In this document: positions 47,745 through 63,494 of the stretch, piece by piece | Layout: every line of letters starts with the position of its first letter | Numbering within the stretch: the first letter of the stretch is position 1 | IMG/VR virus record: IMGVR_UViG_3300038443_001768 | Length of the DNA stretch: 64,000 nucleotides | Origin: a virus | Reading direction: 5' to 3' (one strand) | Made by a program: the position numbers and the translations under genes | The notes under the pieces: generated by a model | Told to the model about the DNA's origin: nothing | Database searches by the model: none | Seen by the model: the letters and a program-made list of their open reading frames with translations, nothing else

Positions 47745-47819
47745 TGGTAGCCCCACCGGGGATTGAACCCGGTCTAAGAGTGTGAAAGACTCTCGTGCTG
47801 ACCATTACACCATGGGGCC
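47745..47819 (-). tRNA. tRNA-Glu(UUC), with encoded CCA
   Basis: Cloverleaf; anticodon loop CTTTCAC. Confidence 0.9.
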
Positions 47820-47827
47820 GTGAAGGG

Positions 47828-47906
47828 TAGCGGAGGTAGGATTCGAACCGTTTATGACGACCTCCTGGTTATGAGCCAGGCGAGCTTCCAACTGCTCTAC
47901 TCCGCG
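47828..47906 (-). tRNA. Initiator-like tRNA-fMet(CAU) with 6-nt T-stem insertion
   Basis: CGCGGAG acceptor with C1:U72 mismatch; loop CTCATAA; T-stem 5' strand GTCATAAACGG. Confidence 0.8.
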
Positions 47907-47912
47907 TGATAG

Positions 47913-47985
47913 TAGGCCGTGCGGGATTCGAACCCGCGTTCTTCACTGTGAGAGAGTGACGAGATAACCGCTACTCCAACGGCCC
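47913..47985 (-). tRNA. tRNA-Glu(CUC)
   Basis: Cloverleaf; loop CTCTCAC. Confidence 0.9.
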
Positions 47986-48005
47986 AAGCTTTGACAAGTG
48001 TAGCA

Positions 48006-48078
48006 CGCCCCCGGCAGGATTCGAACCCGCGACCAGCCGGGTAGAAACCGGCCGCTCTGTCCACTGAGCTACAAGGGC
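48006..48078 (-). tRNA. tRNA-Arg(UCU)
   Basis: Cloverleaf; loop TTTCTAC. Confidence 0.92.
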
Positions 48079-48082
48079 AAGA

Positions 48083-48155
48083 TCGCGGCGAGGGGACTCG
48101 AACCCCATTCGGGCGCTCCTTATGAGGGAGTCCGGGTCAACCGATCCGCGCCGCA
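48083..48155 (-). tRNA. Atypical tRNA with CAU anticodon (Met or Ile2)
   Basis: Acceptor and T arm present; loop CTCATAA; reduced D arm. Confidence 0.7.
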
Positions 48156-48158
48156 TTA

Positions 48159-48230
48159 TGTCCCCGGCTGGATTCGAACCAGCGACCTACCGCTTAGGAG
48201 GCGGTCGCGCTTCCGCTGCGCCACGAGGAC
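48159..48230 (-). tRNA. tRNA-Arg(CCU)
   Basis: Cloverleaf; loop CTCCTAA. Confidence 0.9.
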
Positions 48231-48235
48231 TCAAG

Positions 48236-48306
48236 CGGGGCACCTGGGATTCGAACCCAGAAGGCGCGGTTTTGGAGACCGGCCGGCACAACCTACGCTG
48301 TACCCC
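48236..48306 (-). tRNA. Atypical tRNA-Trp(CCA)
   Basis: Loop CTCCAAA; canonical T arm; short D arm. Confidence 0.8.
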
Positions 48307-48311
48307 ATGTA

Positions 48312-48391
48312 CTGGCTGCTTACTTCCGGATCGTGGTCCGGTGTCGGCACTTAGCGGACTCTCCACGTCCACGACAGGAGAACACGGCCAA
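48312..48391 (-). ncRNA. Unknown structured RNA inside tRNA array 1
   Basis: Closing TGGC/GCCA, TGTCG/CGACA, hairpins GTGGAC-GTGGAGA-GTCCGC and CCGGA-CCACGA-TCCGG. Confidence 0.45.
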
Positions 48392-48396
48392 GTGAG

Positions 48397-48469
48397 GGTG
48401 ACCGATCAGATTCGAACTGACGCCGTCTTGGTTCACAACCAAGAGTGCTACCGCTACACCACGGTCACC
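48397..48469 (-). tRNA. tRNA-His(GUG)
   Basis: G-1:C73 pair; loop TTGTGAA. Confidence 0.92.
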
Positions 48470-48474
48470 GAGAG

Positions 48475-48547
48475 CGCCCTTGGCTGGACTCGAACCAGCG
48501 ACCCCCAGCTTCGCAAGCTGGTGCTCTATCCACTGAGCTACAAGGAC
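48475..48547 (-). tRNA. tRNA-Arg(GCG)
   Basis: Cloverleaf; loop TTGCGAA. Confidence 0.9.
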
Positions 48548-48553
48548 TTGGAG

Positions 48554-48627
48554 CGGAAGTGACGGGATTCGAACCCGCGGTCTCGTCCGTGACAGGGACG
48601 CGGGGACGGCCTCTCCCCTACACCTCC
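48554..48627 (-). tRNA. tRNA-Asp(GUC)
   Basis: Cloverleaf; loop CTGTCAC. Confidence 0.9.
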
Positions 48628-48639
48628 AAGTTACTTCAG

Positions 48640-48712
48640 CGTCCCTGGCAGGATTTGAACCCGCGACCCCCTGGTTCGAAGCCAGGTGCTCTATCCACTG
48701 AGCTACAGAGAC
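48640..48712 (-). tRNA. tRNA-Arg(UCG)
   Basis: Cloverleaf; loop CTTCGAA. Confidence 0.9.
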
Positions 48713-48716
48713 TAAG

Positions 48717-48801
48717 TGCGCGAGGTGGGACTCGAACCCACACGACCCTAAGGCCAACCGGGTTTGAGCCGGTCGTGTCTACCAATTCCTACCACTCACG
48801 C
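48717..48801 (-). tRNA. tRNA-Leu(CAA)
   Basis: Long variable arm; loop CTCAAAC. Confidence 0.9.
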
Positions 48802-48812
48802 GAAGACTGCTA

Positions 48813-48896
48813 TGACATCGAGGGGATTCGAACCCCTATGACCTCTCGGCCGGCAGGGTCTAAGCCTGCTGCGTATACCAATTCCACCACGATGCC
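48813..48896 (-). tRNA. tRNA-Leu(UAG)
   Basis: Long variable arm; loop CTTAGAC. Confidence 0.9.
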
Positions 48897-48900
48897 GGAG

Positions 48901-48984
48901 TGCGCTGAACAGGACTCGAACCTGCACGGGTTTTACCCCACAAGGCTCTCAACCTTGCGTGTCTACCAATTCCACCACCAACGC
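48901..48984 (-). tRNA. tRNA-Leu(GAG)
   Basis: Long variable arm; loop TTGAGAG. Confidence 0.9.
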
Positions 48985-48987
48985 GAA

Positions 48988-49108
48988 ATCCCATCAGAGG
49001 CCAGGGCGTCGATGGGAAGGACTACCTTGACCGCCCTCCGCCCAAGCGGCGAAGAATTCGCGTGCTGCCACACGCTTGCCCTCGGTGGCAGCCGAGGGGC
49101 GATCTCAG
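48988..49108 (-). ncRNA. Unknown ~120-nt structured RNA with kissing loops
   Basis: Adjacent hairpins with complementary loops CTGCCA and TGGCAG, plus two further hairpins and a possible pseudoknot. Confidence 0.6.
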
Positions 49109-49112
49109 TGAG

Positions 49113-49184
49113 TCGGGGACGCGGGAGTCGAACCCGCCACCACTCCGTTCCAAGCGGAGGATGCAACCGCTACACCTGACCCCG
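49113..49184 (-). tRNA. tRNA-Pro(UGG)
   Basis: Cloverleaf; loop CTTGGAA. Confidence 0.9.
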
Positions 49185-49187
49185 TAG

Positions 49188-49260
49188 TGGTCGATGCAGG
49201 TCTCGAACCTGCGACCTCATGCGTGTCGAGCATGCGCTCTACCAACTGAGCTAATCGACC
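49188..49260 (-). tRNA. tRNA-Val(GAC)
   Basis: Cloverleaf; loop TCGACAC (C33). Confidence 0.88.
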
Positions 49261-49274
49261 AAGGTACTACTAAG

Positions 49275-49347
49275 CTCCGCCGCCAGGATTCGAACCCGGA
49301 ACTCTCGGGTAACAACCGAGCACGTTCTCCGTTTACGCCACAGCGGA
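49275..49347 (-). tRNA. tRNA-Asn(GUU)
   Basis: Cloverleaf; loop TTGTTAC. Confidence 0.9.
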
Positions 49348-49352
49348 TCGTA

Positions 49353-49425
49353 TTGCAGGCCTAGGATTCGAACCCAGACTTCACGGCTTCAGAGGCCGGC
49401 GGGCTGCCAGTTACACCAGCCTGCA
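49353..49425 (-). tRNA. tRNA-Gln(CUG)
   Basis: U1-A72; loop CTCTGAA. Confidence 0.88.
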
Positions 49426-49429
49426 TTGA

Positions 49430-49501
49430 ATGCGGGACTCGGGTTCGAACCGAGCCGATGAGCTTCAAAGGCTCACGTGCTGCCAGCTACACCATCCCGC
49501 A
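49430..49501 (-). tRNA. tRNA-Gln(UUG)
   Basis: U1-A72; loop CTTTGAA. Confidence 0.88.
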
Positions 49502-49515
49502 GAGGAAGGAAAACA

Positions 49516-49537
49516 ACTCTAGCATAGTCTCGTGACA
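49516..49537 (-). promoter_or_regulatory. Promoter of tRNA array 1
   Basis: TGTCA-N8-TGCTAGAGT; same motif precedes arrays 2 and 3. Confidence 0.6.
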
Positions 49538-49539
49538 AG

Positions 49540-49970
49540 CGTGGGCCGGACAGCGATGAACGCCGCCCGGCCCACTACCCGGAGAACCATGACCACCAAC
49601 TGCTCCTGTCGCGAAACCTGCGTGCGACAAGCCTGCACTGCCGGACCGGAGAGGAGCGCCGACGACCTAGCGCTCAACTCTCCGGCCCATAAGCCCTTTC
49701 GGGGAGAGGAGGGACTCCACCCTCAACGTCACGACCCGGCGTGGGCAGCCGTTCGGTGATAGCCAATACCACCCAGGTCGATCCGTGCTCATCGACGGGC
49801 CGCCAAGCCCAACACATCGCTGACTCGGAGTGGCTGCTCCTGTCCACCGCTACGACTCCCAGGCTGATGACCCTGTCGTGCAGCTTTTCCCGACGCTTCG
49901 ATGACACTTTAGCCGCGTGCTGCTACGGCTTGTTCGGTCACTCTCTGCCGCACTGGCCGGTGCGGCGTTG
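49540..49970 (-). ncRNA. Candidate large (~430 nt) structured ncRNA
   Basis: Continuous GC-rich hairpins, no convincing ORF, upstream TTGACA/extended -10 promoter (49976-50006), strong 3' hairpin. Confidence 0.55.
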
Positions 49971-50020
49971 AAGGAACTGTAGCACATGTCGAGGGGTGTG
50001 TGTCAAGGCCGAGACGGAAA

Positions 50021-55614: not shown

Positions 55615-55636
55615 ACTGTAGCAGATCTACGCGACA
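55615..55636 (-). promoter_or_regulatory. Promoter of tRNA array 2
   Basis: TGTCG-N8-TGCTACAGT. Confidence 0.6.
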
Positions 55637-56157
55637 AGCGAGCAGACGCCTGTGTCTGGCTCTACGACCTCGATCTCAAAGGTGTTCAGATGCGGAGTCG
55701 CGCGAGCCTCTGCCTCCTCGCGGGCCACGCGCGCCGCTACCTGCTCGGCCGTCTCAGGAATCGGCCAGTTGCCGTTCTCGTCCTTGAGAGCGGTTAGGTC
55801 TTCGCCCAACTGCTCCAACATGAAGAACAATAGCGGTGTATGCGCCTTCTTCTGATTGCAGTCGAAACATGAGCCTGATCGATTTGTCCACGAGCCCTTT
55901 GATCCACCTAGCGCCTTCGGCTGGACGTGGTCAACGGTAGTTCCGCGCAGGCACGCGCAGTATGCACATGGGTCGCGACGGATGATGTGGTCCCAAACGG
56001 CGCGAGATGCGTGCGGCCGGCGCAGTAGGCCGCCAAGACGCGCTCCGGATGGGACGCGAGCGTGGATTAGCTCGTCACCGCACGCAGGGCAAGACTTACC
56101 GCGGAGTTCCGCAGTGAAGCCGGCCTTGCACGAGGAGCACCAGATTAGCTGTGCCAC
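55627..56157 (-). CDS. HNH endonuclease
   Basis: RRDPCAYC...TVDHVQPKALGG...N....CFDCNQKK, plus N-terminal Zn ribbon. Confidence 0.85.
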   Translation of the reverse strand: MAQLIWCSSCKAGFTAELRGKSCPACGDELIHARVPSGARLGGLLRRPHASRAVWDHIIRRDPCAYCACLRGTTVDHVQPKALGGSKGSWTNRSGSCFDCNQKKAHTPLLFFMLEQLGEDLTALKDENGNWPIPETAEQVAARVAREEAEARATPHLNTFEIEVVEPDTGVCSLVA

Positions 56158-63472: not shown

Positions 63473-63494
63473 ACTCTAGCACATCTCCATGACA
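63473..63494 (-). promoter_or_regulatory. Promoter of tRNA array 3
   Basis: TGTCA-N8-TGCTAGAGT. Confidence 0.6.

What the first reader, a model, noticed from the sequence alone, without database searches (positions are those of the whole stretch)
49540..49970. Candidate ~430-nt large structured ncRNA upstream of tRNA array 1
Seen: this is the only long stretch without a convincing gene in a densely coding genome. It has its own - strand promoter (TTGACA...TGTGcTACAGT, 49976-50006). It is filled with helices: GCCGCAC/GUGCGGC, AGCCG/CGGCU, GUCGAU/AUCGAC, GGUGGU/AUCACC, GAGGG/CCCUC, a GAAA tetraloop, nested CCGGAGAG/CUCUCCGG with GAGCGC/GCGCUC, UGUCGC/GCGACA and a 15-bp 3' hairpin. An 11-mer GACAGGAGCAG occurs twice (49834-49844, 49600-49610). 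A long-range pair AAGCUGCAC (49878-49886) / GUGCAGGCUU (49629-49638) is loosely reminiscent of RNase P P4. Known: large ncRNAs such as GOLLD and ROOL often sit by phage tRNA clusters. I cannot match it to a known class.
Basis: partly seen in the sequence, partly recalled or inferred. Interest (0 to 1): 0.78.

Follow-up and report, generated by a model that had tools for sequence, protein, structure and literature searches.

The report
Enlarged manA-type RNA heading tRNA array
The flagged stretch is a real, evolutionarily maintained folded RNA gene of an uncultured soil phage, but it is not a new class: it is an enlarged, uncatalogued relative of the known 'manA' phage RNA, sitting with its own promoter at the head of a tRNA gene array.

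Summary
Window 49541-49969 (- strand) is non-coding, has a conserved promoter and folds into a multi-helix RNA. Rfam's manA model (RF01745) aligns end to end to 49699-49965 at 35.9 bits (E 1e-7, below the 55.2-bit gathering score), with 74-nt and 25-nt insertions. Three independent relatives from soil metagenomes carry the same RNA upstream of the same tRNA array. On these four sequences, 96.5% of cells in 78 predicted pairs are paired, against about 40% in slid controls. Twenty-five pairs show compensatory changes, against 2-6. The longest ORF is frameshifted in a relative. The extended -10 motif TGCTAnAGT occurs four times in 64 kb: before this RNA and before each of the three tRNA arrays. 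The last ~100 nt (49541-49643) occur only in the window and its closest relative. RNase P, tmRNA, GOLLD, ROOL, OLE, raiA and 6S give no match. Best reading: a free-standing manA-class RNA co-expressed with phage tRNAs. It possibly self-assembles, as a 2026 preprint reports for manA in vitro, but its function is untested. Earlier AI notes of this scan report enlarged manA-like RNAs beside tRNA arrays in other phages, so this is a new variant of a known kind.

The parts
49976..50006 (-). Promoter of the RNA: TTGACA (50001-50006), a 19-nt spacer, and the extended -10 TGTGCTACAGT (49976-49986). The inferred start is near 49968-49969, about 3 nt before P1.
   Evidence: Both elements are invariant in four relatives while the spacer varies at constant length. 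TGCTAnAGT occurs only 4 times in the window, always before a stable-RNA unit. The start site is inferred, not shown.
49704..49966 (-). manA-like core. P1 is 49947-49966. The closing helix pairs GAGAG (49941-49945) with CUCUC (49704-49708). P3 (49906-49938) has the conserved GUGACCGAACAA/UAAAGUG internal loop. The P4 domain is closed by 49899-49904 with 49789-49794 and holds four hairpins. P5 is 49727-49785. P6 is 49709-49724.
   Evidence: Rfam RF01745 hit at 49699-49965: 35.9 bits, E 1.1e-7, model positions 1-192. RNAalifold and pair counts on four sequences.
49811..49898 (-). Lineage-specific expansion inside the P4 domain (hairpins P4a, P4b, P4c). It replaces the two small hairpins and the conserved GGUGGUGCU of canonical manA. 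cmscan shows a 74-nt insertion here.
   Evidence: alignment (insertion of 74 nt, deleted model hairpins). Helices 6-9 are kept in four relatives, with compensatory changes.
49694..49703 (-). P7: small hairpin CCC-GAAA-GGG directly after the closing helix.
   Evidence: The GAAA tetraloop is replaced by UUCG in L170 and L171 with the stem unchanged.
49644..49687 (-). P8: long GC-rich hairpin (GGCCGGAGAG...CUCUCCGGUC with an inner GC helix). It is the last element shared by all four relatives and is a possible terminator without a U tract.
   Evidence: Compensatory changes: GGAGAG/CUCUCC becomes GGCGAG/CUCGCC or GGAAGG/CCUUCC. The terminator role is inferred.
49541..49643 (-). 3' extension found only in the window and L002: a variable middle hairpin, an invariant GGUCAUGGUUCUCCGG block, and a 13-15-bp hairpin (49541-49575).
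   Evidence: Absent from L170 and L171. Diverged, with hairpins kept, between the window and L002.
49516..49538 (-). Separate promoter-like element of tRNA array 1: TTGTCACG-N6-TGCTAGAGT. It ends 14 nt before tRNA-Gln(UUG).
   Evidence: The same composite motif stands before arrays 2 and 3 and is conserved in L002, L170 and L171.
47745..49501 (-). tRNA array 1 (18 tRNA genes, beginning Gln-Gln-Asn-Val-Pro), the constant downstream neighbour of the RNA.
   Evidence: ARAGORN and Rfam. The array has the same order in L170 and L171.

Best explanation
Window 49644-49969 (- strand), extended in this lineage to about 49541, is a gene for a stable, intricately folded non-coding RNA. It is an enlarged, divergent relative of the manA RNA class. 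It is transcribed from its own extended -10 promoter of the same type that drives the phage's three tRNA arrays, so it is made together with the phage tRNAs. It most likely acts as a free RNA particle rather than as a switch for a downstream gene. By analogy with canonical manA RNAs, it may join with copies of itself through loop-loop contacts.

Shown here: the fold is under selection, it is homologous to manA, it does not code for protein, and the promoter motif is shared with the tRNA arrays. Inferred: the transcript ends, its existence as a free RNA, self-assembly, and any role in tRNA or translation takeover.
For: Homology to manA:
- RF01745 aligns over model positions 1-192 at 35.9 bits, E 1.1e-7.
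- Relatives score 40.2 bits (L003) and 34.7 bits (L171).
- The signature GAGTGACYGAAYAA..TAARGTG retrieved more than 120 cyanophage manA loci.

Fold under selection:
- Four sequences were compared: the window, L002, L170 and L171. The adjacent CCA enzymes are 91%, 66% and 60% identical.
- 78 pairs; 96.5% of cells are paired, against 37-44% when partners are slid.
- 25 pairs have changes on both sides, against 2-6 in slid controls. 0 of 500 shuffles reach this.
- The closing helix changes from GAGAG/CUCUC to GGAUA/UAUCC in L170.
- The tetraloop swaps from GAAA to UUCG.

Not coding:
- The 77-aa ORF is cut to 48 aa in L002 by a 2-nt indel. About 10 of the shared 48 residues differ, so most of the few base changes there alter the protein.

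Promoter:
- The -35 and extended -10 are invariant in four relatives while the spacer varies.
- TGCTAnAGT occurs 4 times, only before the RNA and the three arrays. 0 of 100 shuffles reach 4.

Module linkage:
- The RNA and the array stay together while the upstream neighbour differs in the window, L170 and L171.

Self-assembly lead:
- Ren et al. (preprint 10.64898/2026.07.01.735769) report manA 60-mer, 10-mer and 8-mer cages held by kissing loops.
- Two non-nested loop-loop pairings are possible in all four sequences here, each with one double change.
Against: The Rfam score is below the gathering threshold, and two conserved manA hairpins are replaced. L170, a clear homologue, has lost the signature letters and gives no manA hit. 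No RNA data cover the stretch, so a discrete transcript, its ends and its abundance are unshown. No U-tract terminator follows P8 or the 15-bp hairpin, so read-through into the array cannot be excluded. The covariation rests on only four sequences. The loop-loop pairings have one double change each and could be intramolecular. The cage result is an in vitro preprint on shorter canonical RNAs.
Confidence: 0.6

Rival explanations
1. It is a cis-acting leader, either a riboswitch or a processing or stability element. The manA-like fold would sense a ligand or factor and control read-through from the upstream promoter into tRNA array 1, or serve as a 5' leader that RNase P cuts off.
For: manA was originally rated a likely cis-regulator and riboswitch candidate (PMC2864571). 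The RNA always lies on the same strand directly upstream of the array. No canonical terminator separates them. In about 10 of 120 canonical cyanophage loci a same-strand tRNA follows manA within a few to about 16 nt, measured from approximate 3' ends.
Against: The array has its own conserved promoter-like element of the same type as arrays 2 and 3, which have no such leader. No alternative pairing between the core and P8 covaries. A riboswitch that controls tRNA genes has no precedent known to me. The L127-type manA-like lineage is not next to tRNAs.
Confidence: 0.2
2. It encodes one or more small proteins: ORF 49674-49907(-), ORF 49532-49759(+), or the 23-codon ORF 49519-49590(-).
For: GC3 minus GC2 reaches 0.36 in the frame of ORF 49674-49907(-) over a 120-nt window, close to the value for real genes. 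The 23-codon ORF keeps its length in L002.
Against: The 77-aa ORF is frameshifted to 48 aa in L002. About 10 of the shared 48 residues differ, so most of the few base changes there alter the protein. Indels of 1, 2, 3 and 9 nt are scattered through the region. Substitutions are paired across helices instead. Whole-ORF GC1/GC2/GC3 values do not match those of real genes.
Confidence: 0.03
3. It belongs to another known large RNA class (RNase P, tmRNA, GOLLD, ROOL, raiA, OLE, 6S/Ms1), or is a wholly new class that resembles manA only by chance.
For: Its size and its position beside tRNA genes resemble GOLLD and ROOL (my own knowledge of Weinberg et al. 2009 and 2017). The manA score is below threshold.
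Against: A permissive cmscan of 49480-50020 at E<=10 returned only manA, plus two noise hits at E 2.5 and 5.9. ARAGORN finds no tmRNA. The manA alignment covers the whole model, keeps the order of helices, and is repeated in two relatives.
Confidence: 0.05

Closest known systems
manA RNA motif (Rfam RF01745; Weinberg et al. 2010, PMC2864571)
   Same: The order of elements matches: a 5' hairpin P1; a 5-bp closing helix (GGGAG/CUCCC in manA, GAGAG/CUCUC here); a hairpin flanked by GUGACYGAAYAA and UAARGUG; a multi-hairpin domain closed by a 6-bp helix whose last hairpin is kept; a long hairpin; and a 3' hairpin abutting the closing strand. It is carried by a phage, and a promoter -10 sits directly before P1, as in many cyanophage copies.
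   Different: It scores 35.9 bits against a gathering score of 55.2. A 74-nt expansion replaces two hairpins and the conserved GGUGGUGCU. P5 is expanded. P7, P8 and a 100-nt tail are added. GC content is 61%, against about 37-40% for the cyanophage copies. It comes from a soil phage rather than marine cyanophages or Photobacterium. It heads an 18-tRNA array rather than a protein gene.
manA cages in vitro (Ren et al. 2026 preprint, 10.64898/2026.07.01.735769)
   Same: The core family is the same. Loops here can pair with each other in all four relatives, as kissing loops do in the reported pentamers.
   Different: Nothing about assembly was tested here. The peripheral helices that carry the reported contacts are the very ones that differ.
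GOLLD and ROOL RNAs (large phage or prophage RNAs often beside tRNA genes; own knowledge)
   Same: It is a large, ornate RNA that is phage-borne, adjacent to tRNA genes, and of unknown function.
   Different: There is no sequence or structure match, and it is smaller (about 330-430 nt).
Other sub-threshold manA-like lineages found here, and a plasmid manA reported in the literature
   Same: All share the signature motif and closing helix. L127-type scores 47-49 bits. L135, L138 and L148 score about 38 bits and lie 212 nt upstream of a same-strand tRNA array. L125 scores 31 bits. The L154 element lies inside a 63%-GC tRNA array. The manA copy on plasmid pMP7017 lies beside a tRNA region (PMC10832533). 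Sources.
   Different: Each lineage has different peripheral expansions. L127-type is not tRNA-linked. L154 is supported by motifs only, with 15.5 bits from Rfam.

Membership tests
manA RNA (RF01745) | Score at or above Rfam's gathering threshold (55.2 bits) | tested here: not met
   35.9 bits, E 1.1e-7, over the full model length. Relatives score 40.2 and 34.7 bits.
manA RNA (RF01745) | 5' hairpin P1 followed by the closing helix GGGAG...CUCCC that encloses the rest | tested here: met
   P1 is 49947-49966. GAGAG 49941-49945 pairs with CUCUC 49704-49708. Four of the 5 pairs change on both sides in L170. The same G:C to A:U swap is seen within the L127-type lineage.
manA RNA (RF01745) | Conserved internal loop GUGACYGAAYAA / UAARGUG around a hairpin | tested here: met
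   Exact match at 49906-49940. The same pattern retrieved more than 120 canonical manA loci.
manA RNA (RF01745) | Three-hairpin domain with conserved GGUGGUGCU and an ACCA loop | tested here: not met
   The domain's closing helix and last hairpin are kept. The first two hairpins are deleted in the cmscan alignment and replaced by a 74-nt insertion that forms three other hairpins.
manA RNA (RF01745) | Long hairpin, then a 3' hairpin abutting the closing strand | tested here: met
   P5 is 49727-49785 (expanded). P6 GAGGG/CCCUC is 49709-49724, with 3 compensatory pairs.
manA RNA (RF01745) | Homo-oligomer or cage formation (Ren et al. 2026 preprint) | not testable with these tools
   Only loop-loop complementarity could be counted.
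Riboswitch / cis-regulatory leader | Expression platform (terminator or SD sequestration) coupled to a downstream ORF | tested here: not met
   No ORF lies downstream. The next unit is a tRNA array with its own promoter-like element. No U-tract terminator is present.
RNase P, tmRNA, GOLLD, ROOL, raiA, OLE, 6S/Ms1 | Match to the family's covariance model | tested here: not met
   No hit at E<=10 in 49480-50020. ARAGORN finds no tmRNA.

The most novel reading that the evidence does not exclude
Enlarged manA-class RNAs are a widespread, lineage-diversified class of phage RNA particles that are functionally tied to phage tRNA sets. They would be made from tRNA-type promoters, self-assemble into RNA-only shells in infected cells, and hold, protect or organise phage tRNAs or their maturation. 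A CCA-adding enzyme gene lies within 1 kb here. This would explain why unrelated phages, from marine cyanophages to high-GC soil phages and a Bifidobacterium megaplasmid, place them beside tRNA arrays.
Probability: 0.12. Interest if true: 0.85.

Novelty: new variant of a known kind. Interest (0 to 1): 0.5.

Why it matters
manA was catalogued in 2010 as a marine riboswitch candidate. A 2026 preprint reports that it builds RNA-only cages in vitro, but its biological role is unknown. This locus takes the class into high-GC soil phages, whose host is probably an actinobacterium. It shows that the core tolerates large peripheral expansions. It also gives a clean genetic context: the RNA has its own promoter of the same type as the phage's tRNA arrays, it is always linked to one array, and it never precedes a protein gene. 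That context argues against the riboswitch reading and for a free RNA made together with the phage's tRNAs. It also means that Rfam's threshold misses several whole manA-like lineages.

Tried and rejected
- DNA (blastn) and protein (tblastn) searches of the 50,697 deposited phage genomes found no close relative. The capsid matched actinophages at only 28% identity.
- My own covariance model R1, built from 48 canonical cyanophage manA sequences, was too narrow. It aligned only the 18-nt signature in the window and was discarded in favour of Rfam's model.
- GC3 frame analysis could not settle whether the stretch codes for protein. The comparison with L002 settled it.
- RNA evidence. One metatranscriptome run (X12) holds a 183-nt contig over tRNA-Gln/Asn (49296-49476) and nothing over the RNA. 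These are contigs only, so this says nothing about expression in either direction.
- Metagenome and genome pattern scans gave no further member of the window's own lineage.
- Contigs carrying more distant CCA-enzyme relatives either lack the array (L173, L175-L177) or carry an unrelated sequence in the slot (L172, L174).
- A switch between P8 and the conserved UUCUCCGG block was considered and dropped. P8 changes in L002 while the block does not.

Full report
**Context**

The window is part of an uncultivated phage genome with 61% GC. It encodes a portal, an HK97-type capsid, a class II ribonucleotide reductase, ThyX and a CCA-adding enzyme. It carries 36 tRNA genes in three minus-strand arrays. 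No whole genome is held for it. No deposited phage is close, and the capsid is 28% identical to actinophage capsids. A weak Rpf-type transglycosylase hit and soil or rhizosphere DNA runs holding the stretch point to a soil actinobacterial host. This is an inference.

**The observation**

The stretch folds better than shuffled sequence, with z -2.9 for 484 nt and z -5.1 for the 3' 176 nt.

**What it is**

A permissive Rfam scan gave one meaningful hit. manA (RF01745) matches 49699-49965 on the minus strand at 35.9 bits. The E-value is 1.1e-7 for the region and 1.3e-5 for the whole window. The match covers model positions 1-192, with insertions of 74 and 25 nt. This is below Rfam's 55.2-bit gathering score.

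The alignment keeps these manA elements:
- P1
- the closing helix
- the hairpin flanked by GUGACCGAACAA and UAAAGUG
- the six-pair helix that closes the multi-hairpin domain, and that domain's last hairpin
- the long hairpin
- the 3' hairpin next to the closing strand

A pattern made of the signature letters retrieved more than 120 canonical manA loci from IMG/VR, all low-GC and marine. A variant pattern found further sub-threshold lineages that Rfam also aligns end to end: L127-type at 47-49 bits, L135/L138 at about 38 bits, and L125 at 31 bits. The window RNA is therefore one of several divergent manA-like lineages, not an isolated chance hit.

**Relatives and covariation**

Two IMG/VR contigs (L001/L004 and L002/L003) are identical to each other over this region and 83% identical to the window. 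Homologues of the neighbouring CCA-adding enzyme led to Logan contigs L170 (66% identical protein) and L171 (60%). Both have the same tRNA array order and a clearly homologous RNA upstream, with nhmmer E about 1e-120.

RNAalifold on the four distinct sequences predicts 78 pairs in 15 helices. Pair counts are as follows:
- 96.5% of cells are paired, against 37-44% when the 3' partners are slid by 1-3 columns.
- 25 pairs have changes on both sides, against 2-6 in the slid controls.
- None of 500 shuffles reaches any observed measure.

Specific changes support the fold. The closing helix goes from GAGAG/CUCUC to GGAUA/UAUCC in L170, so four of five pairs are swapped. The P7 tetraloop changes from GAAA to UUCG. 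P8 changes from GGAGAG/CUCUCC to GGCGAG/CUCGCC or GGAAGG/CCUUCC. Helix coordinates in the window are given under parts.

Four sequences are few and they are related, so the slid controls are the fairer comparison. The contrast is still large.

**Not coding**

The longest ORF (49674-49907, minus strand, 77 aa) is cut to 48 aa in L002 by a 2-nt indel. About 10 of the shared 48 residues differ, so most of the few base changes there alter the protein. Indels of 1, 2, 3 and 9 nt occur downstream. Codon-position GC was inconclusive.

**Transcription signals**

TTGACA and TGTGCTACAGT are invariant in all four relatives, while the 19-nt spacer varies in sequence but not in length.

The core TGCTAnAGT (TG-n-TAnnnT, an extended -10) occurs exactly four times in 64 kb, all on the minus strand:
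- 49976-49984, before the RNA
- 49516-49524, 14 nt before array 1
- 55615-55623, 10 nt before array 2
- 63473-63481, 41 nt before array 3

Shuffles give a mean of 0.87, and none of 100 reaches four. The three array sites share cTTGTCRCG-N6-TGCTAsAGTT.

The RNA therefore has a promoter of the phage's stable-RNA type, and the array has its own. A start near 49968-49969, three nucleotides before P1, is inferred. Many canonical manA copies also have a -10-like TATAnT directly before P1. No U-tract terminator follows the RNA, so some read-through into the array is possible.

**Anatomy beyond the manA core**

P7 and P8 (49644-49703) are shared by all four relatives. The last ~100 nt (49541-49643), which include the 15-bp hairpin and the second copy of the 11-mer, exist only in the window and L002 and have diverged between them. 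The conserved RNA is therefore about 326 nt.

**Link with tRNAs**

- The RNA-array module is constant while the upstream neighbour differs: small minus-strand genes in the window, a tail-fibre-like gene in L170, and the CCA enzyme in L171.
- The unrelated low-GC lineage L135/L138/L148 has its manA-like RNA 212 nt upstream of a same-strand tRNA array.
- A 63%-GC metagenome contig (L154) carries the signature, a P1 with a GACG loop and a matching closing helix in a 244-nt gap inside a tRNA array. Rfam gives it only 15.5 bits.
- About 10 of 120 canonical loci have a same-strand tRNA within a few to about 16 nt (3' ends approximate) of the manA 3' end.
- A Bifidobacterium megaplasmid has manA beside its tRNA region (PMC10832533).
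- The L127-type lineage is not tRNA-linked, so the association is frequent but not universal.

**Mechanism**

manA was proposed as a cis-regulator or riboswitch candidate (PMC2864571). A July 2026 preprint reports that canonical manA RNAs form RNA-only 60-mer, decamer and octamer cages in vitro through kissing loops and a GNRA-receptor contact. It says nothing about in vivo function or tRNAs (10.64898/2026.07.01.735769).

Two non-nested loop-loop pairings are possible in all four sequences here, each with one double change:
- the P3 loop GCAGC (49919-49923) with GCUGC (49745-49749), which becomes GCGGC/GCCGC in L170
- the P4b loop GUCA (49868-49871) with the P4d loop UGGC (49802-49805), which becomes GCUA/UGGC in L170 and GCUA/UAGC in L171

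These may be intramolecular pseudoknots or intermolecular contacts, and the data cannot tell which.

I therefore favour a free, stable manA-class RNA made together with the tRNAs and possibly self-assembling (0.6 for the free-RNA reading, much less for cages in vivo). The rivals are a cis leader of the array (0.2), another or a new RNA class (0.05) and coding (0.03).

**Expression data**

The one metatranscriptome run holding part of the stretch has only a tRNA-Gln/Asn contig. This is no evidence about the RNA in either direction.

**Novelty**

The class is known. This lineage, its expansions and its promoter context are not catalogued. Earlier AI notes of this scan report similar enlarged manA-like RNAs in or beside tRNA arrays of other phages, and they pointed me to the preprint, which I then read. 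This is a new variant of a known kind.

Noticed in passing
L172:1397-2013(-) and L174:1185-1991(-): In more distant relatives (CCA enzyme 57-60% identical, same Gln-Gln-Asn-Val-Pro array) the slot before the array holds a different gene-free stretch of 600-800 nt. The two stretches are homologous to each other (83% over 160 nt) and have their own TTGACA-N17-TAAGCT site. They have no manA signature and no Rfam hit. This may be another RNA in the same position.
   Followed up: partly
window 49516-49524, 55615-55623, 63473-63481 (-): Each of the three tRNA arrays is preceded by the composite element cTTGTCRCG-N6-TGCTAsAGTT. The 10-11-nt gap between its two halves is too short for a sigma-70 -35/-10 pair. 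The upstream half may be a factor-binding site.
   Followed up: partly
window 49519-49590 (-): A 23-codon ORF (AUG at 49588-49590, UAG at 49519-49521) keeps its length in L002, but most residues differ. It overlaps the 15-bp hairpin and ends inside the array's -10 element, so it is probably chance.
   Followed up: partly
window 55627-56157 (-); L154:1160-1500; L171:8208-8741: HNH endonuclease genes sit directly beside or inside the tRNA arrays of this phage group (precomputed Pfam; read by eye).
   Followed up: no
L138:5882-5944 (-): A freshwater-1 RNA (RF02979) hit at 71 bits, one bit below its gathering score, lies inside the tRNA array that is headed by a manA-like RNA.
   Followed up: no
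alignment A3 (canonical manA); window 49966-49971 and 49724-49729: In canonical manA, P1 (UGUUGG/CCAACA) and the 3' hairpin (GUUGG/CCAAC) use the same arm sequences, so strands could be exchanged between them. In the window lineage the leader UCAACG complements CGUUGA just before P6, but there is no covariation.
   Followed up: no
window 49815-49986: Soil and rhizosphere DNA runs X2 and X4 hold a contig with the L002-type variant of the RNA's 5' part, including the compensatory G:C to C:G swap in P3. They also hold a contig identical to the window for 49482-49844. Both strains therefore co-occur in several samples.
   Followed up: no
window 48985-49111 and 48231-48395 (-): These are unusually long spacers without tRNA genes inside array 1. 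A weak tRNA-Sec-like hit (25 bits) lies at 48236-48307. Other notes of this scan also flagged them.
   Followed up: no
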